Sequence record: OR979722.1
Reading direction: 5' to 3' (one strand)
DNA length: 39,424 bases
Origin: Escherichia phage ETEP21B
A program made the translations under genes and the position numbers. Positions 1 through 39,424 of this stretch are shown piece by piece (the stretch's first letter is position 1; each line of letters opens with the position of its first letter). The notes under the pieces were generated by a model that saw nothing but the letters and a program-made list of their open reading frames with translations, searched no databases and was not told the origin of the DNA.

Positions 1-145
1 GTGTTACCACTAGATATGGGGCTTAGGGTGACTTAGTGATACTATATGTGGGCCTCTATGTGTCCCTATCTGTAATCACCTAGAGTCACCACCTAGAGTC
101 ACCACCTAGAGTCACCACCTAGAGTCACCACCTAGAGTCACCACC
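1..145. repeat. Left direct terminal repeat (DTR); identical to 39280-39424. True repeat probably extends to about 184 because the right copy is cut by the window end
   Basis: Exact match of window start to window end read by eye; core GTGTCCCTATCTGT resembles the T7 terminal-repeat sequence. Confidence 0.85.
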
Positions 146-184: not shown

Positions 185-381
185 TTATGTCAGACCAGTG
201 ACCTCTATCCTTATGTTAACCTTCAGTCGGTGCCTTCAGTTTATCAGTGACCAGTAGGCTTAGTCACAAAGGGATTCACTATCTTACTCTGTTTAGCAGT
301 CTCTGAGTAATGAGAGAGACACAAATAGAATTGACTGAGTGCCTATAGTGCCTTAAAGGTGACTAAGAGTCAATCCCTGAT

Positions 382-404
382 TAATGCGACTCACTAATGG
401 GATA
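382..404 (+). promoter_or_regulatory. Phage RNAP promoter (phiOL-like), TAATGCGACTCACTAATGGGATA
   Basis: Match to the T7-type promoter family found 15 times in the window; same position as phiOL in T7. Confidence 0.7.
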
Positions 405-435
405 GGCCGATTATGGTCTAATTATAATCCCTTCC

Positions 436-482
436 TTATAGGCTAACTTAAAGACTACTTAAAGATAACTTAAAGTCTAACT
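436..482. repeat. Three phased copies of ACTTAAAG (about 11-bp spacing) just upstream of the first early promoter
   Basis: aACTTAAAGactACTTAAAGataACTTAAAGtct seen in sequence; two more copies at 38605-38625. Confidence 0.7.
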
Positions 483-487
483 AAGGG

Positions 488-516
488 TTGACTCTAAGAA
501 ACAGCTATGGTTTAAT
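488..516 (+). promoter_or_regulatory. Host sigma70-type early promoter (A1-like): TTGACT, 17-bp spacer, TTTAAT
   Basis: -35/-10 pattern at the position of the T7 A1 promoter; -10 is weak. Confidence 0.45.
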
Positions 517-623
517 AGCTACCAGTTGAGAGACACAACGCTAACAACTACCAGACAAGACCTAGAGTTATCTGGTAAGGCTGAAGGGTCTCAAGTAGTC
601 ATCAACCAGACATACGAAAGTGG

Positions 624-652
624 TTGACTCAACGAAAGCAATAGCGTAGTAT
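624..652 (+). promoter_or_regulatory. Host sigma70-type early promoter: TTGACT, 17-bp spacer, TAGTAT
   Basis: Good -35/-10 hexamers and spacing; early leader region. Confidence 0.55.
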
Positions 653-874
653 AGCAGTCCTCAACACAAAGTAACCCTCTGAAACAACACGAGGTGTCAT
701 GGTGAAACAAGTGTTGATTAGTAGTAAGGTCGCTATCGGCTTCCACGGTAGCAGTTCGGGAAGGCACTAAAGCCTAACAAGTGGTTGACCACCACGAGAC
801 ATTAAGCGCCCACGAGTGGGAACAACGCGGAGTCAGACGGTCGCCCACTGAGGGGCTATAGCTCACAAATCAGG

Positions 875-13153: not shown

Positions 13154-15268
13154 ATGTTACTATCCGACATCGAAACAAACGGGTTGCTGCACAACGTTAG
13201 TCAATTTCACTGTGCGGTGACTTACGACTACACAACTGACCAGTACATCCGTTACCGACCTGATGACTTTGGGGCGTACATTGATGCACTCGAAGCCGAG
13301 GTTGCTCGTGGTGGTCTCATTGTGTTCCACAACGGTCACAAGTATGACGTTCCTGTTATCGAGAAGCTGGCGAAGCTGATTCTGAATCGTGACGTTAAGT
13401 TCCCGAAAGAGAACGTTTTGGATACCCTCGTGATGTCCCGCTTGATTTACTCTAACATCAAAGACACCGATGCTGGTCTGCTCCGTGCTGGTAAGCTGCC
13501 GGGTAAACGCTTTGGTTCCCACGCTCTGGAGGCTTGGGGTTATCGCTTAGGCGAAATGAAGGGTGAGTACAAGGACGACTTCAAGGCTTCACTGGCTGAG
13601 TCTGGTGAAGAATACGTTGATGGTATGGAATGGCTCCTGTTCAACGAAGACATGATGGAATATAACGTTCAAGACGTTGTAGTCACCAAGGCTCTCTTCG
13701 AGAAACTCTGTAGCAACACATTCTATTTCCCTAACGAGACACCTGCTGGAAGCACAGAAGCAGACCGTTTCTGGAATGGTAGCCTTGAGGCTGTCAAACT
13801 GGAACATGATGCTGCGTGGTTGTTAGCCAAGATGGAACGTAACGGTTTCCCGATTGACGTCAAGTCTCTTGAGAACCTGTACGCAGAACTCGCTGGTCGC
13901 CGTGGTGAGCTACTCGTAGAGTTAACCAATACGTTTGGCTCATGGTACTCCGCTAAAGGCGGTGTGGAAGCATTCAGGCACCCTCGTACCGGAAAGCCAC
14001 TCACTAAGTATCCTCGTGTGAAGTATCCGAAACAGGGTGGCATCTTTAAGAAGCCGAAGAACAAGAAGCAACGTGAAGGTCTGGAACCTTGTGAACTGGA
14101 CACTCGTGATTATGTAGAGGGCGCTCCGTATACGCCTGTAGAGCACGTTGTGTTTAACCCTGCAAGTCGTGACCACATCACCCGTGTGCTTACCAAAGCT
14201 GGATGGGTTCCCGTTGAGTTCACTCCGAGTGGTGCACCAAAGGTAGACGATGAGGTCTTAGAGCACGTTAAGGTAGACGACCCTGATGCACAGCGTTGCA
14301 TTGAGTTGATTAAAGAATACCTTATGATTCAGAAACGTATCGGTCAGGTTGCTGAGGGTGATAACGGCTGGCTCCGAATGATTGGAGACGATGGTCGTAT
14401 TCACGGAAGCGTTAACCCGAACGGTGCGGTAACTGGTCGTGCAACTCATAGTTTCCCTAACGTGACACAGGTGCCTTCCATCCGTGCTGCATATGGCGAA
14501 CCTTGCCGTGCTGCTTTCGGTGCCGAGCACAACATGAAAGACGGTAAGCCAGACCCTTGGATTCAAGTTGGTGTGGATGCGTCCGGCCTTGAGCTACGCT
14601 GCTTGGGTCACTTCATGTATCGCTATGATGAGGGTGAGTACGTTGAGACCATCCTAACTGGTGACATCCATACGAAGAACCAGTTGGCTGCTGGTCTACC
14701 AACTCGTGACAACGCTAAGACGTTTATATATGGGTTCCTCTATGGCGCTGGTGCTGCGAAGATTGGACAGATTGTTGGGGGTACTGCCGAAGACGGTAAG
14801 CGACTCATCAAGAACTTCCTTGAGCAAACTCCGGCTATCGCTGCGTTACGTGAAGCAATCACAGGGACACTCGTCAAGGACTCTAAGTGGGTCGGTGGCG
14901 AACAGAAAGTAACTTGGAAGCGCCGATGGGTTCGTGGGTTGGATGGTCGTAAAGTCCATGTCCGTAGTCCTCATGCTGCGCTGAACACCTTGTTGCAGTC
15001 TGCTGGTGCACTTATTTGTAAACTGTGGATTGTCAAGACAGAAGAGATGCTCCTTGAGATGGGCTATAAGCACGGCTGGGATGGTGACTTCTGCCTCATG
15101 GGGTGGATACACGATGAGCAACAGCTTGCTTGCCGTACTGAAGAGATTGCCAAAGTTGTAATCGAAGTATCTCAACAGGCTATGCGCTGGGTTGGAGACC
15201 ACTTTAACTTCCGGTGCCAACTGGATACTGAAGGAAAGATGGGGCCGAATTGGGCTGTATGCCACTGA
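13154..15268 (+). CDS. 5: DNA polymerase gp5 (family A, with 3'-5' exonuclease), 704 aa
   Basis: Collinear with T7 DNA polymerase (same 704 aa; DIETNGL exo motif, GLIVFHNGHKYDVP, KTFIYGFLYGAG, HDE motif, C-terminal GPNWA.CH). Confidence 0.98.
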   Translation: MLLSDIETNGLLHNVSQFHCAVTYDYTTDQYIRYRPDDFGAYIDALEAEVARGGLIVFHNGHKYDVPVIEKLAKLILNRDVKFPKENVLDTLVMSRLIYSNIKDTDAGLLRAGKLPGKRFGSHALEAWGYRLGEMKGEYKDDFKASLAESGEEYVDGMEWLLFNEDMMEYNVQDVVVTKALFEKLCSNTFYFPNETPAGSTEADRFWNGSLEAVKLEHDAAWLLAKMERNGFPIDVKSLENLYAELAGRRGELLVELTNTFGSWYSAKGGVEAFRHPRTGKPLTKYPRVKYPKQGGIFKKPKNKKQREGLEPCELDTRDYVEGAPYTPVEHVVFNPASRDHITRVLTKAGWVPVEFTPSGAPKVDDEVLEHVKVDDPDAQRCIELIKEYLMIQKRIGQVAEGDNGWLRMIGDDGRIHGSVNPNGAVTGRATHSFPNVTQVPSIRAAYGEPCRAAFGAEHNMKDGKPDPWIQVGVDASGLELRCLGHFMYRYDEGEYVETILTGDIHTKNQLAAGLPTRDNAKTFIYGFLYGAGAAKIGQIVGGTAEDGKRLIKNFLEQTPAIAALREAITGTLVKDSKWVGGEQKVTWKRRWVRGLDGRKVHVRSPHAALNTLLQSAGALICKLWIVKTEEMLLEMGYKHGWDGDFCLMGWIHDEQQLACRTEEIAKVVIEVSQQAMRWVGDHFNFRCQLDTEGKMGPNWAVCH

Positions 15269-15279
15269 GGAGGTAAACT

Positions 15280-15615
15280 ATGGGAGGCGTTACTACGCTT
15301 AGGTTTCACACTATGCCGACTGGCTGTGTCGTCTGCGTCTCCCATAAGAGGAACAAAGATGGTTACTTCCGGTACAGCGTAGGGTCATCCAGAAAGGGTG
15401 AGAAGATGGCGTTTATGTTCCACCGATTCGTGTGGGAGAACGTCAACGGAAAGATACCAGAAGGGTATGAGATAGACCATCTATGCCTAAACCGTGGGTG
15501 CTGTAACGTAGAGCACCTACAGTGTATCCCCAAGCGGGAACATGTAATCAAGACTAACCGAGAGCGGAAGGTCATCACATTGAAAGCAAAGGAGAAATAT
15601 CATGGCTATTACTAA
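15280..15615 (+). CDS. HNH endonuclease (homing-endonuclease-like), 111 aa
   Basis: HNH motif EIDHLCLNRGCCNVEHLQ with upstream HRFVWE; GAGGAGG RBS; lies between DNA polymerase and gene 5.5. Confidence 0.8.
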   Translation: MGGVTTLRFHTMPTGCVVCVSHKRNKDGYFRYSVGSSRKGEKMAFMFHRFVWENVNGKIPEGYEIDHLCLNRGCCNVEHLQCIPKREHVIKTNRERKVITLKAKEKYHGYY

Positions 15616-32608: not shown

Positions 32609-32631
32609 CAATACGACTCACTATTGGGAAG
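32609..32631 (+). promoter_or_regulatory. Phage RNAP promoter (phi17-like), CAATACGACTCACTATTGGGAAG
   Basis: Consensus match directly after gene 16 stop. Confidence 0.85.
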
Positions 32632-35256: not shown

Positions 35257-35697
35257 ATGCTCAAGAATTTAAAGAGCTACGCCATAATTGCTGCGTTTGC
35301 CTTGGGTATTACCCTTGCGTATAACCACGGATATGACAAAGCTAACACTAAATGGGAACAGGAGGTGCACAATGAGTACGTTAAGAAAGTTAAGGCGACT
35401 GAGGATAAACAGGCTGCTATCAACGAAGTCTCACGACAATACCAAGAAGACCTTGCGGCGTTGGAAGGCAGCACTGATAGGGTCATTAATGATTTGCGTA
35501 ACGATGGTAAGCGGCTGCGTGTCAAGCTGTCAAACACCTCACGAGAACTCCAAGCTAACGGTGGATGCCTCGCTGATGGTCGAGCCGAACTTGACGAAGA
35601 GTTTAGTAAGCGTCTTATCGGAGTAACTCAAAGAGGGGATGCGTGGATTAGAGCGCTCCAAGGTACAATAACTGAAATGCAACGTAAGGAGAAATAA
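35257..35697 (+). CDS. 18.5: Inner-membrane spanin (Rz-like, gp18.5), 146 aa
   Basis: N-terminal transmembrane segment, coiled-coil body; T7 gp18.5 position and size. Confidence 0.88.
   Translation: MLKNLKSYAIIAAFALGITLAYNHGYDKANTKWEQEVHNEYVKKVKATEDKQAAINEVSRQYQEDLAALEGSTDRVINDLRNDGKRLRVKLSNTSRELQANGGCLADGRAELDEEFSKRLIGVTQRGDAWIRALQGTITEMQRKEK
35372..35626 (+). CDS. 18.7: Outer-membrane lipoprotein spanin (Rz1-like, gp18.7), 84 aa, fully embedded in gene 18.5 in the +1 frame
   Basis: MSTLRKLR...KKTLRRWKAALIGSLMICVTMVSGC...SLMVEPNLT resembles T7 gp18.7; signal peptide plus Cys lipobox; GGAGGTG RBS. Confidence 0.85.
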   Translation: MSTLRKLRRLRINRLLSTKSHDNTKKTLRRWKAALIGSLMICVTMVSGCVSSCQTPHENSKLTVDASLMVEPNLTKSLVSVLSE

Positions 35698-35698
35698 C

Positions 35699-36256
35699 AT
35701 GGCTACTGTAAACTCAAGAACCCGTACCATCTGGACTATCAATGGTCGCTCACCGGACAGCCGGGATATGTACGACCGAAACAATGTGGGCCTTCGTGTT
35801 GGGCGTATCGACATCCCAGCTTCAGAAATGGTCAAGGTAGATGGCTATGACAAGGTTGAATATGTTGTTCAACTGAGTGACGGCACAACCGAGCAACATG
35901 CTACCTTTGAGACCCTGATGTCCACTTGGGGTGGCTCCGTCGAGTCTAAACCGGGTAGTGGGTTCATGACTGTATTTCTGGATGAGCAAAGCTCTGAGCG
36001 TCTCGGTATGGTTCGAATCGACGTATACAAAGAGTGGACTGGTGCTGACCCTGAACCGGAAGGCGGTATGGATTCGCTAGTTAGTGCAACGCTTTCTGCG
36101 TCTGATAGTGCATTTGGTACACAGTTCGTGGACAGCGAAGGAAAGAGCGCTTCCGTTATGTTCCAGCCTAGTAACATCGACGGGGCTGTATCTAAGACAG
36201 ACACCATCAAGGCTCTGGAGAAGCGCATCGCTGCCTTAGAGAAACCTGCCGAGTAA
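35699..36256 (+). CDS. Hypothetical protein, 185 aa, acidic, no recognisable motif; extra gene between spanins and terminase
   Basis: Clean ORF with AAGGAG 8 nt upstream, start overlapping the 18.5 stop (TAACATG); I recall no gene at this position in T7 or T3. Confidence 0.7.
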   Translation: MATVNSRTRTIWTINGRSPDSRDMYDRNNVGLRVGRIDIPASEMVKVDGYDKVEYVVQLSDGTTEQHATFETLMSTWGGSVESKPGSGFMTVFLDEQSSERLGMVRIDVYKEWTGADPEPEGGMDSLVSATLSASDSAFGTQFVDSEGKSASVMFQPSNIDGAVSKTDTIKALEKRIAALEKPAE

Positions 36257-36271
36257 CAATAGGAGGCCACA

Positions 36272-38032
36272 ATGTCACAATCCCAAGAAGCTAAGAACGC
36301 GCTAATCATTGCGCAACTTAAGGGTGACTTCGTGGCCTTCCTGTTCGTCTTATGGAAGGCTCTGAACTTACCTAAACCAACCAAGTGTCAGATTGATATG
36401 GCACGAACACTCGCTAATGGAGACCACAAGAAGTTTATCCTTCAGGCGTTCCGTGGTATCGGCAAGTCCTTTATCACCTGTGCGTTCGTTGTGTGGGTAT
36501 TATGGCGTGACCCTCAACTTAAGGTGCTCATTGTGTCTGCCTCTAAGGAACGTGCGGATGCTAACTCCATCTTCATCAAGAACATCATCGACCTCTTACC
36601 GTTCCTCTCTGAGTTGAAACCTCGACCGGGACAGCGAGACTCCGTGATTAGCTTTGATGTTGGCTTGGCTAAACCCGACCACTCACCTTCTGTGAAGTCT
36701 GTGGGTATCACTGGTCAGTTGACTGGTAGCCGTGCTGACATCATTATTGCAGATGACGTTGAGGTTCCCGGTAATAGCTCTACGAGTTCTGCCCGTGAGA
36801 AGCTCTGGACGTTGGTAACTGAGTTTGCTGCATTACTTAAGCCGCTGCCTACCTCTCGTGTTATCTACCTTGGGACACCTCAAACCGAGATGACTCTCTA
36901 CAAGGAACTCGAAGATAACAAAGGGTACAGCACCGTAATCTGGCCTGCACAGTATCCACGCAATGATGCTGAGGCTCTCTACTATGGGGACCGCTTGGCT
37001 CCTATGCTGAAGGCTGAGTACGATGAAGGCTTTGAGTTACTCCGTGGTCAACCTACTGACCCTGTTCGATTCGATATGGATGACCTCCGTGAACGTGAAC
37101 TCGAATATGGTAAAGCTGGTTACACTCTTCAGTTCATGCTTAACCCTAACCTTAGTGATGCCGAGAAGTACCCACTACGACTCCGTGACGCTATCGTGTG
37201 CGCTGTGGACCCTGAACGTGCCCCATTGTCTTACCAGTGGTTGCCGAACCGTCAGAACCGCAATGAGGAACTCCCTAACGTTGGTCTGAAGGGTGATGAC
37301 ATTCACAGCTTCCATGTGTGTTCCTCTAAGACCGCTGAGTACCAGCAAAAGATTCTCGTCATTGACCCATCGGGTCGTGGTAAGGATGAAACAGGTTACG
37401 CAGTCCTCTACACCCTTAACGGCTACATCTACTTGATGGAAGTCGGTGGGTTCCGTGGTGGCTACGATGACCCTACCTTAGAGAAGCTCGCTAAGAAGGC
37501 CAAGCAGTGGAAGGTACAGACGGTCGTACACGAGAGTAACTTCGGTGATGGTATGTTCGGTAAGGTATTCTCTCCGGTTCTCCTGAAGCACCACAAGTGT
37601 GCCTTAGAAGAGATTCGTGCTCGTGGCATGAAGGAGATGCGTATCTGCGATACTATCGAACCGTTGATGGGTGCACACCGCCTTATCATCCGTGACGAAG
37701 TAATCCGTGAGGACTACCAGACCGCTCGTGACCTCGATGGGAAACATGATGTTCGCTACAGTGCGTTCTATCAGATGACCCGTATGACTCGCGAGAAGGG
37801 CGCTGTGGCACACGATGACAGACTTGATGCTATCGCATTGGGTATCGAGTTCCTTCGTGAAGGGATGCAGGTGGACTCTAAGGTGGGCGAAGAAGCTATG
37901 ACCCTTGAGTTCCTTGAGCACCACATGGAGAAACCTATCATCGGTGGTGACATGGCTCGTGAGTTAGTGTCTGGCGGCGTGGACATCTACTACGAGGATG
38001 ATGGTGATGGAGAGTGCTTCATTGAGTGGTAA
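36272..38032 (+). CDS. 19: Terminase large subunit gp19 (ATPase/nuclease), 586 aa
   Basis: Collinear with T7 gp19 (same 586 aa; [91 protein letters not shown]-terminal FIEW). Confidence 0.98.
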
Positions 38033-38055
38033 TGACAACTAATTAAGGAGGTAAT

Positions 38056-38505
38056 ATGAGAGTGGCAATTGACCCTATCAGTGGTTGCCACAACTTCCTT
38101 GGGTGTAAGACTTCGGGTGGCTACGGTAGAATCCGTGTAGGTGGTGTCCATTGGATGGCCCACAGATACGCTCTATCAGTTCACCTGAAGCGTCCACTAG
38201 AGGAAGGCTGTGTGGTAATGCACTTATGTGATAACCCTGCCTGTGTTAACCCTGAGCATCTCAGAGAGGGAACTCAGAAGGAGAACATGCAGGACTGTAA
38301 GGACAAGGGAAGGATGCACAAGGCTACAGGCCCTAGAGCACCTCGTCGTCCGTACATCAATAAAATCAACCAGCGATACAATGAGAGACTTAAGGCTGTC
38401 CTTGAGGCCGATGGGTCTGACTTGCAGGTCGCTAAGAAGCTGGGCCTGAACCTACAGTGGGTCAAGAAGGCTCGTAAAGGTAAACTAGTTATGCAAGAAG
38501 TGTGA
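38056..38505 (+). CDS. HNH endonuclease with C-terminal helix-turn-helix-like region, 149 aa
   Basis: Motif GYGRIRVGGVHWMAHRYA...HLCDNPACVNPEHL..GTQKEN; AAGGAGGT RBS; immediately downstream of terminase. Confidence 0.8.
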   Translation: MRVAIDPISGCHNFLGCKTSGGYGRIRVGGVHWMAHRYALSVHLKRPLEEGCVVMHLCDNPACVNPEHLREGTQKENMQDCKDKGRMHKATGPRAPRRPYINKINQRYNERLKAVLEADGSDLQVAKKLGLNLQWVKKARKGKLVMQEV

Positions 38506-38571
38506 ATAGTTAAGCACATCATGAGGCCCTTCCAGTGAACTATAAAAACCTAATGAAATCAAGGGTGTACC

Positions 38572-38594
38572 TAATACGACTCACTATTGGGAAG
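38572..38594 (+). promoter_or_regulatory. Phage RNAP promoter (phiOR-like), TAATACGACTCACTATTGGGAAG
   Basis: Consensus match near the right end, as phiOR in T7. Confidence 0.85.
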
Positions 38595-38750
38595 GGCCCC
38601 CTAAGACAACTTAAAGACACTTAAAGACTGCATATGCAAAGTGCATACTTAGTGACTACTCTTAGAGACCATTACAGTGAGGGATGATGGTAATAGTAAT
38701 TACATCCCTACTATCAGTGTAACCATCAAGTATAACAAGGAGGACGCTCT

Positions 38751-38906
38751 ATGCGCTTACTATCCGTGCTCAAGACACTGGCAACGCATCGAGTGACTTA
38801 CAAATTTCTCGTTGTACTTGCTGCTTCCATTGGTCTCGCATCTAGTGCTGAACACATCGGTGAACTGGAGACTCTGCTTTGTTCTCTACTCACTTGTGTT
38901 CCTTAG
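38751..38906 (+). CDS. 19.5: gp19.5-like small hydrophobic protein, 51 aa (not in ORF track)
   Basis: AAGGAGGA 6 nt upstream of ATG; last gene before the right end, as T7 gene 19.5. Confidence 0.55.
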   Translation: MRLLSVLKTLATHRVTYKFLVVLAASIGLASSAEHIGELETLLCSLLTCVP

Positions 38907-39279
38907 ACTGCTCATCGGCGCTTAGTGCGCTCTTAGTGATAATGGTCGATATACATCTTCCCTATTATCACTGTAAGAAGTCAACTCTAAGAGTAACCCT
39001 TATGTACCCTATGGTCTACAGGGTCTCTTAGGGTCTCTCACGTAGTCTCACCGCTATGCTCCTGCGTAGCACCTTATGATAGCCACCCTGTGGTGAACCT
39101 TATGAGACTTGATGTACCCTTTAAGAATCCTACAGAAAATCTGAGTGGGTATCTCATAGTTCATACAAAGTGTTTCCCCCCCCTATGGCCTCCTTCAGTC
39201 CACTCAAAGAGTGCCACCCTATGGTAACTTATGGTTTACTTAATGTCAATCCTTATATGTGACATTGGGTTAACTCTAG

Positions 39280-39424
39280 GTGTTACCACTAGATATGGGG
39301 CTTAGGGTGACTTAGTGATACTATATGTGGGCCTCTATGTGTCCCTATCTGTAATCACCTAGAGTCACCACCTAGAGTCACCACCTAGAGTCACCACCTA
39401 GAGTCACCACCTAGAGTCACCACC
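39280..39424. repeat. Right direct terminal repeat (truncated by window end), includes at least 5 copies of the 13-bp tandem unit from 39356
   Basis: Exact identity to 1-145. Confidence 0.85.

What the first reader, a model, noticed from the sequence alone, without database searches (positions are those of the whole stretch)
38056..38505. HNH endonuclease gene directly downstream of the large terminase
The product has a complete HNH motif (HLCDNPACVNPEHL...N) and a helix-turn-helix-like C-terminus. It lies in the right-end region where T7 has only the small gene 19.5. HNH genes next to terminase genes are either free-standing homing endonucleases, a sign of mobile-element invasion, or packaging co-factors as in some cos phages. 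Either role would be notable for a T7-like phage that packages from concatemer junctions.
Basis: partly seen in the sequence, partly recalled or inferred. Interest (0 to 1): 0.6.

Follow-up and report, generated by a model that had tools for sequence, protein, structure and literature searches.

The report
Mobile HNH homing-endonuclease cassette after terminase
The gene is real and is an ordinary selfish "homing endonuclease" cassette that hops between related T7-like phages at one fixed spot after the terminase gene; it is already annotated in close relatives and is not a DNA-packaging helper.

Summary
The ORF at 38056..38505 (+, 149 aa, AAGGAGG ribosome-binding site) is real. It is a two-domain I-HmuI-like protein: an N-terminal HNH_3/His-Me finger nuclease with invariant catalytic residues, a flexible linker, and a C-terminal three-helix HTH. 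The window is a complete Berlinvirus (T7-like) genome.

The gene sits between the gene 19 (large terminase) stop codon and the phiOR promoter. T7 and about 38 Berlinvirus records have only a conserved 81-89 nt spacer there. About 98 phage records in three genera carry a homolog, in nearly every listed case at this site. PP74 and PcCB251 carry it at 98.7% aa identity, annotated "HNH homing endonuclease".

Near-isogenic pairs differ only by swapping the spacer for the cassette. In the window, only the cassette (about 38005-38547) is 99% PP74-like; gene 19 up to 38004 is 99.4% BP12A-like. That indicates recent lateral transfer.

All 8 alleles examined are intact, with dN/dS 0.11-0.30. The packaging-cofactor reading fails its defining features: the terminase is T7-type rather than Terminase_1, the phage is not a cos phage, the gene is patchy among viable relatives, and the protein has an extra DNA-binding domain.

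Verdict: a known kind of element, already annotated. Nuclease activity and target site are untested. Low interest.

The parts
36272..38032 (+). Gene 19, large terminase (586 aa). Its conserved 3' end is the left homology arm of the cassette.
   Evidence: ORF. PF22530 Terminase-T7_RNaseH-like 4.9e-40, weak Terminase_6N, no Terminase_1. Annotated as terL in all relatives.
38000..38004 (.). Left crossover interval. To its left the window matches BP12A-type gene 19; to its right it matches the PP74/PcCB251 type.
   Evidence: the last mismatch to PP74 is at 37999 and the first mismatch to BP12A after 37888 is at 38005. One search gives the sliding identity.
38033..38055 (+). Cassette 5' leader with the Shine-Dalgarno site AAGGAGG (38045-38051). 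No promoter of its own.
   Evidence: The nearest upstream phage promoter is at 32609, and no terminator-like site was found in 35500-39424.
38056..38505 (+). HNH homing endonuclease gene (149 aa), 98.7% identical to PP74 orf49 and the PcCB251 homolog.
38194..38292 (+). HNH_3 / beta-beta-alpha-metal core (aa 47-79). H56 (38221-38223) is the presumed general base; N65 and H68 follow; N77 (38284-38286) is the presumed metal ligand. C11, C58, C63 and H68 are a likely zinc site.
   Evidence: Pfam match. H56, C58, C63, N65 and H68 are invariant and N77 is at least 90% conserved in 35 homologs. Residue roles are inferred from the HNH family.
38353..38475 (+). C-terminal three-helix HTH-like DNA-binding domain (aa 100-140), joined by a low-confidence linker (aa about 86-99).
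   Evidence: helices 100-117, 122-129, 133-140; pLDDT dips to 59-78 in the linker. (I-HmuI full-length; weak XRE/Fis HTH hits)..
38506..38571 (+). Cassette 3' flank, specific to occupied sites (GAACTATAAAAACCTAATGAAATCAAGGGTGTACC). The right crossover with the PP74-type tract lies between 38503 and 38547.
   Evidence: the flank travels with the HEG in Berlinvirus and in Helsettvirus fPS-59. (mismatch density to PP74 rises from 38548).
38572..38594 (+). phiOR phage-RNA-polymerase promoter TAATACGACTCACTATTGGGAAG, the right homology arm. Identity between occupied and empty genomes resumes exactly here.
   Evidence: annotated phiOR in BA14 and Yepe2. (exact consensus match)..
38751..38906 (+). 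Gene 19.5 homolog (51 aa). Context only, not part of the cassette.
   Evidence: 54% identity to T7 gp19.5, E=2e-12. Annotated 19.5 in BA14 and Kvp1.

Best explanation
It is a free-standing HNH homing endonuclease gene (HEG): a promoter-less, roughly 540-bp mobile cassette (SD + ORF + 66-nt 3' flank) that has replaced the ancestral ~80-nt spacer between the gene 19 stop codon and the phiOR promoter.

Shown: the ORF and its family; an I-HmuI-like two-domain fold; purifying selection; one fixed insertion site in three genera; empty and occupied alleles in near-isogenic genomes; a cassette-limited 99% identity tract showing recent lateral exchange.

Inferred mechanism: the gene is transcribed late on the gene 17-19 message. 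The monomer binds a long asymmetric site through its HTH and HNH domains and nicks or cuts a co-infecting relative that carries the empty spacer. The target is most probably within or at the edges of that spacer, because the spacer is the only local sequence that distinguishes near-isogenic empty and occupied genomes. The break is then repaired by T7-type recombination using the HEG+ genome as template, with the conserved gene 19 end and phiOR as homology arms. That copies the cassette in and destroys the site, which would make carriers immune.
For: Family and fold: Pfam HNH_3 1.1e-9, PHROG 6254 2.8e-57. AF2 pLDDT 89.6. Foldseek PDB top hit I-HmuI 1u3e, E=6.3e-4, prob 1.00, 159 columns, then I-PpoI. 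Catalytic and zinc residues are invariant in 35 homologs.

Functional constraint: 8 alleles are intact with dN/dS 0.11-0.30.

Fixed site, patchy presence: 98 phage records with E<1e-30, nearly all of the 60 listed lying at the far right end of the genome or, in circularly permuted records, at the matching spot; the position directly after gene 19 was confirmed in the 8 carrier loci inspected, in Berlinvirus, Helsettvirus and Teseptimavirus. 38 records have the empty 87-nt spacer at 95-100% identity. The T7 spacer is homologous to it (z=5.0), so the empty state is ancestral.

Near-isogenic pair: ErnstBeyeler (HEG+) and CarlSpitteler (HEG-) are identical from -99 to +7 around the gene 19 stop and again from phiOR -17 onward. 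In between, 80 nt is swapped for 526 nt.

Lateral transfer: the window is 99.4% BP12A-like up to 38004. It is 99% PP74-like over about 38005-38547, while only 75-92% PP74-like over the last 700 bp of gene 19. BP12A's own HEG is only 46-83% identical in nt.

Expression: no promoter between 32609 and the ORF and no terminator, as for the promoter-less free-standing HEGs of T4 (PMC2988022).
Against: No nuclease activity, cleavage site or biased inheritance has been measured for this protein or, as far as my searches found, for any T7-group homolog at this locus.

Free-standing HEGs in T4 can cut hundreds to thousands of bp away from their gene (PMC2988022), so placing the target in the spacer is only the most parsimonious guess.

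The promoter-proximal spacer variant is not perfectly linked to HEG presence: P151 has an HEG+-like right half without the HEG.

The window's pattern fits replacement of a resident type-B HEG by a type-A one as well as, or better than, invasion of an empty site. Ordinary homologous recombination without any endonuclease-made break could also produce it.
Confidence: 0.85

Rival explanations
1. Packaging co-factor: the HNH protein works with the terminase to cut concatemers, as HK97 gp74, phi12/80alpha HNH or Skunavirus HrdP do in cos phages.
For: It is immediately adjacent to and co-transcribed with the large terminase gene. HNH genes next to terminases are established packaging components in other phages (PMC12967558; Kala et al. 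2014 as quoted in PMC8861465).
Against: The terminase is PF22530 T7-type with a weak Terminase_6N hit, not Terminase_1. The genome has direct terminal repeats (145 bp shared), not cos ends. The gene is absent from 38 records of close relatives and from T7, all of them propagated isolates. Packaging-type HNH proteins are universal and more than 90% conserved within their genus and are about 94-aa single-domain proteins. This one is patchy, its alleles diverge to 52-72% aa identity, and it carries an extra HTH domain. There is no Pfam PF01844 hit at E<=1.
Confidence: 0.03
2. Decaying or domesticated remnant: the ORF is an inactive relic of a former HEG, or a DNA-binding protein that has lost nuclease activity (for example a regulator acting near phiOR through its HTH).
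For: No activity data exist. HEGs commonly degenerate after fixation. The HTH domain and the position directly upstream of a promoter would allow a regulatory role. fPS-7 shows only 79% coverage, so some copies may be truncated.
Against: All 8 alleles examined are full length, with dN/dS 0.11-0.30 even at near-saturated dS. H56, N65, H68 and the Cys ligands are invariant and N77 nearly so. The cassette moved recently into a different gene 19 background. Relatives without it keep the same phiOR promoter.
Confidence: 0.08
3. Passive cargo: the presence/absence pattern reflects only ordinary homologous recombination and deletion at a hypervariable intergenic spot, with the nuclease serving some other purpose such as host DNA degradation or exclusion of unrelated phages.
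For: The spacer has at least four haplotypes, including HEG-free RN5i1 and P151 types. Gene 19 itself is mosaic. Both flanks of gene 19 are indel hotspots.
Against: The same gene family occupies the same site across three genera while the flanks differ. The architecture is that of site-specific homing enzymes (I-HmuI), not of non-specific nucleases. Nucleases marking recombination boundaries are themselves a described signature of HEG activity (PMC10448857).
Confidence: 0.04

Closest known systems
PP74 orf49 / PcCB251 homolog / Yepe2 'gp7.7 homolog' (Berlinvirus post-gene-19 HNH endonuclease)
   Same: Same locus: gene 19 stop, then the HEG, then phiOR. Same length. 98.7% aa identity to PP74 and PcCB251, 68-72% to the Yepe2, Berlin, BP12A and ErnstBeyeler alleles. 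Already annotated as HNH or homing endonuclease.
   Different: Two amino-acid changes relative to PP74 (I5V, K140E). The window's surrounding gene 19 is BP12A/BA14/Kvp1-like rather than PP74-like. None of these proteins has been characterised experimentally as far as I could find.
I-HmuI (PDB 1U3E), the intron-encoded HNH nicking homing endonuclease of Bacillus phage SPO1
   Same: Best structural match over the full length (Foldseek E=6.3e-4, prob 1.00, 159 columns). Same order of modules: HNH catalytic domain, extended linker, C-terminal HTH.
   Different: Only 22% identity and no sequence-level PDB hit. This gene is free-standing in an intergenic spacer, not inside a group I intron. It is 149 aa against 174 aa. 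Whether it nicks or makes a double-strand cut is unknown here.
T4 MobE/MobA free-standing HNH homing endonucleases
   Same: Intergenic between conserved genes. HNH domain fused to a C-terminal DNA-binding region. Promoter-less cassette riding an existing polycistronic message. Patchy distribution, with flanking co-conversion and mosaicism (PMC2988022).
   Different: Different phage family and no detectable close sequence relationship. MobE's target lies in a neighbouring gene (nrdB), whereas here the target is unmapped and I infer it lies in the replaced spacer.
T7 gp2.8 and gp7.7
   Same: Same HNH_3 family in the same phage subfamily: gp2.8 is 32% identical over 138 aa (E=6e-20), and gp7.7 is 41% over 83 aa (E=1e-16). 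They are also small free-standing genes between conserved genes.
   Different: Different insertion sites (between 2.5 and 3; between 7.3 and 8). T7 has the empty spacer after gene 19.
HK97 gp74 / Skunavirus HrdP packaging-type HNH proteins
   Same: An HNH nuclease motif and adjacency to terminase genes.
   Different: The packaging proteins are universal in their genus, single-domain, about 94-120 aa, non-specific nucleases, essential, and paired with Terminase_1 enzymes in cos phages. None of these features holds here.

Membership tests
HNH (beta-beta-alpha-metal / His-Me finger) nuclease superfamily, Pfam HNH_3 | Sequence match above the curated cutoff, with the catalytic His and the Asn/His metal-site residues present | tested here: met
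   HNH_3 scores 38.2 bits against a cutoff of 24.8. H56, N65 and H68 are invariant and N77 is at least 90% conserved in 35 homologs.
HNH (beta-beta-alpha-metal / His-Me finger) nuclease superfamily, Pfam HNH_3 | Beta-beta-alpha fold of the core | tested here: met
   The AF2 model has strands 52-56 and 69-73 followed by helix 74-83, at pLDDT 94-97. Foldseek hits I-HmuI and I-PpoI.
I-HmuI-like modular HNH homing endonucleases | N-terminal HNH domain plus a C-terminal helix-turn-helix DNA-binding domain joined by an extended linker | tested here: met
   with weaker support from PHROG 4441 and HTH_23 in homologs.
Free-standing homing endonuclease gene (HEG) | Located in an intergenic region between genes conserved among related phages, not within an intron or intein | tested here: met
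   It lies between the gene 19 stop and phiOR/gene 19.5. Gene 19 is uninterrupted at 586 aa, the same length as in T7.
Free-standing homing endonuclease gene (HEG) | Sporadic presence/absence among close relatives at an otherwise conserved site, with an identifiable empty site | tested here: met
   98 occupied against 38 empty records (counts include GenBank/RefSeq duplicates). Near-isogenic pairs. The T7 empty spacer is homologous.
Free-standing homing endonuclease gene (HEG) | Evidence of lateral movement independent of the flanking genes (phylogenetic incongruence or a conversion tract) | tested here: met
   The cassette is 99% PP74-like while gene 19 is 99.4% BP12A-like. Crossovers are at 38000-38004 and 38503-38547.
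Free-standing homing endonuclease gene (HEG) | Site-specific cleavage or nicking of the HEG-less allele, and immunity of the HEG-bearing allele | not testable with these tools
   This needs in vitro cleavage mapping. There is only the inference that the replaced 80-nt spacer holds the site.
Free-standing homing endonuclease gene (HEG) | Endonuclease-dependent super-Mendelian inheritance in mixed infection | not testable with these tools
   This needs phage crosses. No published data were found.
Packaging-associated HNH (HK97 gp74 / HrdP type) | Partnered with a Terminase_1-family large terminase in a cos phage | tested here: not met
   Gene 19 is PF22530 plus a weak Terminase_6N hit. The genome has a direct terminal repeat of at least 145 bp.
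Packaging-associated HNH (HK97 gp74 / HrdP type) | Universally present and highly conserved within the phage genus; essential | tested here: not met
   It is absent from 38 Berlinvirus records and from T7. Alleles are only 52-72% identical. Essentiality was not tested directly, but viable HEG-less isolates argue against it.
Packaging-associated HNH (HK97 gp74 / HrdP type) | Small single-domain HNH (Pfam PF01844 type) without a separate sequence-specific DNA-binding domain | tested here: not met
   No PF01844 hit at E<=1. A C-terminal HTH domain is present.

The most novel reading that the evidence does not exclude
Two diverged HEG lineages (type A: window/PP74; type B: BP12A/Yepe2/ErnstBeyeler; about 70% aa identity, dS about 1 or higher) may compete for the same locus. 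The window would then be a type-A-for-type-B replacement driven by type A cutting type-B-bearing genomes. Alternatively, or in addition, the target lies in the conserved gene 19-phiOR spacer next to the concatemer-junction/maturation region, so cutting it would also cripple packaging of a co-infecting rival. That would make it a competition weapon, or a moonlighting role in right-end processing, rather than a purely selfish gene.
Probability: 0.07. Interest if true: 0.55.

Novelty: already known. Interest (0 to 1): 0.2.

Why it matters
It matters little for biology at large. Free-standing HNH homing endonucleases are routine passengers of T7-like phages, and this one is already annotated at the same locus in several RefSeq genomes.

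The useful by-products are practical. The cassette boundaries, the ancestral empty site and natural near-isogenic HEG+/HEG- pairs (ErnstBeyeler/CarlSpitteler, both E. coli K-12 phages from one collection) are now defined. No T7-group free-standing HEG at this locus appears to have been tested experimentally, and this locus would be an easy system for doing so.

For annotation, the lesson is that an HNH gene next to a terminase should not be called a packaging factor without checking the terminase family, the end type and the gene's conservation.

Tried and rejected
1. A sequence search of the PDB found nothing. Only the fold search linked the protein to I-HmuI.

2. I looked for gene 19 3'-end variants linked to HEG status, as a sign of a target inside gene 19. 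Both end variants (…GDGEC FIEW and …GDSSC FIEW types) occur with and without the HEG, so no linkage was found.

3. I supposed the promoter-proximal spacer variant (AAAAACCTAATGAAATCAAGGG) was perfectly linked to the HEG. P151 has a related version without the HEG and RN5i1 has a third spacer type, so the linkage is strong but not absolute.

4. I tested a conserved RNA/DNA stem-loop downstream of the HEG, prompted by a perfect 13-bp inverted repeat in fPS-59. The consensus energy is only -3.6 kcal/mol, 3 pairs are covarying, and pairing is poor in the window and PP74. It is not convincing.

5. I tested whether the last ~25 nt of the HEG ORF plus the 3' flank are a diverged copy of the empty spacer. 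Support is moderate for the window type (z=3.8), weak for type B (z=2.4), and absent against T7 (z=0.3-0.5). I therefore describe the event as replacement of the spacer rather than a clean insertion.

6. One literature query failed on a term-length rule. The other searches found no experimental study of this gene.

7. The Hafnia phage Ca paper concerns a different HEG on the other side of terL, and its deletion overlaps neighbouring genes. It does not bear on a packaging role here.

Full report
**The observation**

The window is a complete T7-like genome of 39,424 bp, with 145 bp shared exactly between its two ends. It belongs to the genus Berlinvirus and is about 92% identical to PhiV-1, CarlSpitteler and 285P.

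The ORF at 38056..38505 (+) is real. It encodes 149 aa from an ATG, with AAGGAGG four bases upstream, and starts 23 nt after the stop codon of gene 19, the large terminase at 36272..38032.

- Pfam gives HNH_3 (E=1.1e-9, above the curated cutoff) and a near-cutoff I-PpoI-type His-Me zinc-loop hit.
- PHROGs gives a full-length hit to 'HNH endonuclease' family 6254 (2.8e-57) and a weak C-terminal HTH hit.
- In an alignment of 35 homologs, H56, C58, C63, N65 and H68 are invariant and N77 is nearly so.
- An AlphaFold2 model (mean pLDDT 89.6) shows a beta-rich N-terminal domain ending in the beta-beta-alpha core, a low-confidence linker (aa about 86-99), and a three-helix C-terminal bundle.
- Its best match among solved structures, over the full length, is the HNH homing endonuclease I-HmuI (prob 1.00), followed by I-PpoI.

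**Where the gene sits**

More exactly, T7 has gene 19, then an 81-nt spacer, then the phiOR promoter, then gene 19.5. The window has all of these: phiOR at 38572-38594 (an exact match to the phage promoter consensus) and a 19.5 homolog at 38751..38906. The HNH gene fills what would otherwise be the short spacer.

**Distribution**

- A tblastn search finds 98 phage records with E<1e-30, and nearly all of the 60 listed hits lie at the far right end of the genome (or the matching position in circularly permuted records); the eight carrier loci I inspected all have the gene directly after gene 19.
- PP74 and PcCB251 are 98.7% identical in aa. ErnstBeyeler, D226 and SEqdws-315 are about 72%. Yepe2, Berlin, Yep-phi and BP12A are about 68%. 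The Helsettvirus fPS phages are about 66%. Teseptimavirus Vi06 and 3A_8767 are about 52%.
- Many of these are already annotated 'HNH endonuclease', 'HNH homing endonuclease' or 'gp7.7 homolog'.
- Conversely, 38 records (BA14, Kvp1, 285P, S523, BSP161, CarlSpitteler, FE44, PhiV-1 and others) carry an 87-89-nt empty spacer that is 95-100% conserved. It is homologous to the T7 spacer (z=5.0 against shuffles). The empty state is therefore ancestral.
- More distant family members occupy other intergenic sites in T7-like phages, such as the gene 2.8 and 7.7 positions.

**Anatomy of the polymorphism**

ErnstBeyeler (occupied) and CarlSpitteler (empty) are near-isogenic here. There is no difference from 99 nt inside gene 19 to 7 nt past its stop (TAGATAA), and identity resumes exactly at position -17 of phiOR. 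Between these points, 80 nt in one genome is replaced by 526 nt in the other.

The cassette is therefore SD + ORF + a roughly 66-nt 3' flank, bounded by two very conserved sequences that can serve as recombination arms. The 3' flank (…GAGTGAGGTGTAAAAACCTAATGAA…) travels with the gene even into Helsettvirus fPS-59. The last ~25 nt of the ORF plus the flank resemble the empty spacer only moderately (z=3.8 for the window type, 2.4 for type B).

**Evidence of recent movement**

- In the window, the last ~330 nt of gene 19 up to 38004 differ from BP12A at 2 positions (99.4%) and from PP74 at 55.
- From 38000 to about 38547 the window differs from PP74 at only 5 positions.
- BP12A's own HEG is only 46-83% identical in nt over this stretch.
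- The left crossover lies within 38000-38004. The right one lies between 38503 and 38547.
- The exchanged tract is thus essentially just the cassette. The pattern looks like a type-A cassette replacing a type-B one, or invading an unsampled empty BP12A/Kvp1-like genome.
- Synonymous divergence between allele types is near saturation (dS about 1 or higher), while the flanks are 0-25% diverged. All eight alleles examined are intact, with dN/dS 0.11-0.30. The protein is being maintained as a working protein.

**Expression**

The nearest upstream phage promoter is at 32609 (the phi17 equivalent). No promoter or terminator-like site lies between gene 19 and the ORF. By inference the gene is expressed late on the gene 17-19 message. 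The T4 review describes the same promoter-less arrangement for seven T4 free-standing endonucleases (PMC2988022).

**Mechanism**

This is inferred, not shown. Like I-HmuI and T4 MobA/MobE, which nick one strand, the monomer would bind a long asymmetric site through its HTH and HNH domains and nick or cut a co-infecting empty-site genome. Repair by the phage's recombination system, templated on the carrier genome, would copy the cassette in.

The empty spacer is the only local sequence that distinguishes near-isogenic empty and occupied genomes, so I place the target there (roughly even odds). Free-standing HEGs can cut far from their gene, and one empty genome (P151) carries an HEG+-like promoter-proximal segment.

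**The packaging-cofactor rival**

The literature criteria are as follows. Packaging HNH proteins accompany Terminase_1 enzymes in long-tailed cos phages (Kala et al. 2014, as quoted in PMC8861465). They are universal, more than 90% conserved, about 94 aa, single-domain, non-specific and essential within their genus (Skunavirus HrdP, PMC12967558).

None of these holds here:

- The terminase is PF22530 T7-type.
- The genome has terminal repeats.
- The gene is missing from many propagated relatives and from T7.
- Alleles are highly diverged.
- The protein has an added HTH.

I give this rival about 3%.

**Verdict**

This is a typical free-standing HNH homing endonuclease cassette, already annotated at the same site in close relatives and uncharacterised biochemically. 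Novelty: already known. Interest is low (0.2). The main value is a well-defined, experimentally tractable homing locus, plus a caution against reading terminase-adjacent HNH genes as packaging factors.

Noticed in passing
window 15280..15615 (+): A second free-standing HNH_3 gene (111 aa; Pfam 5.1e-18; PHROG 1872/6254) lies directly after the DNA polymerase gene (13154..15268), at the position of T7 gene 5.3. It is only distantly related to the post-terminase gene (32% identity over 63 aa). It has no C-terminal HTH.
   Followed up: partly
window 35699..36256 (+): A 185-aa ORF of unknown function (PHROG 20446, 4.5e-123) sits between the Rz-like gene 18.5 and gene 19. It is present in BA14, S523, CarlSpitteler and FE44 but absent in PP74, BP12A, Kvp1 and PcCB251, where the spanin gene abuts terL. 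In fPS-59 and Hafnia phage Ca this same slot holds another HNH endonuclease, so both flanks of gene 19 are indel hotspots.
   Followed up: partly
window 36272..38032: Gene 19 is itself mosaic. Roughly 36300-37299 is closest to CarlSpitteler/ErnstBeyeler (up to 100% per 100-nt window), while 37300-37999 is closest to BA14, Kvp1, S523 and BP12A (94-100%) and only 76-91% to CarlSpitteler. This implies another crossover near 37300.
   Followed up: partly
window 39356..39424 (and 77..145 in the left terminal repeat): There are 5.3 perfect tandem copies of a 13-nt unit (CACCTAGAGTCAC) at the inner end of the direct terminal repeat. The window's two ends share 145 bp exactly (1-145 = 39280-39424).
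   Followed up: partly
L014 (Salmonella phage vB_STy-RN5i1) 1500-1634; L015 (Escherichia phage P151) 1500-1588: Two further haplotypes of the gene 19-phiOR spacer lack the HEG. RN5i1 keeps the first ~32 nt of the empty spacer, followed by ~100 nt of unrelated sequence. P151 has an empty-type left half and a right half resembling the HEG-associated flank. These may be resistant alleles or footprints of HEG loss.
   Followed up: partly
L012 (Salmonella phage Vi06) 1-2143: Vi06 gene 19 is annotated as a two-piece pseudogene with an internal ORF (Vi06_49, locus 300..842). This could be an intron or other intervening element inside the terminase gene, in the same genome that carries the post-terminase HEG.
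   Followed up: no
L011 (Yersinia phage fPS-59) 2651-2716: A perfect 13-bp inverted repeat (AGCTACCCATTGA…TCAATGGGTAGCT) brackets the conserved HEG 3'-flank motif just upstream of phiOR. Berlinvirus copies keep only a weaker version (consensus fold -3.6 kcal/mol, 3 covarying pairs).
   Followed up: partly
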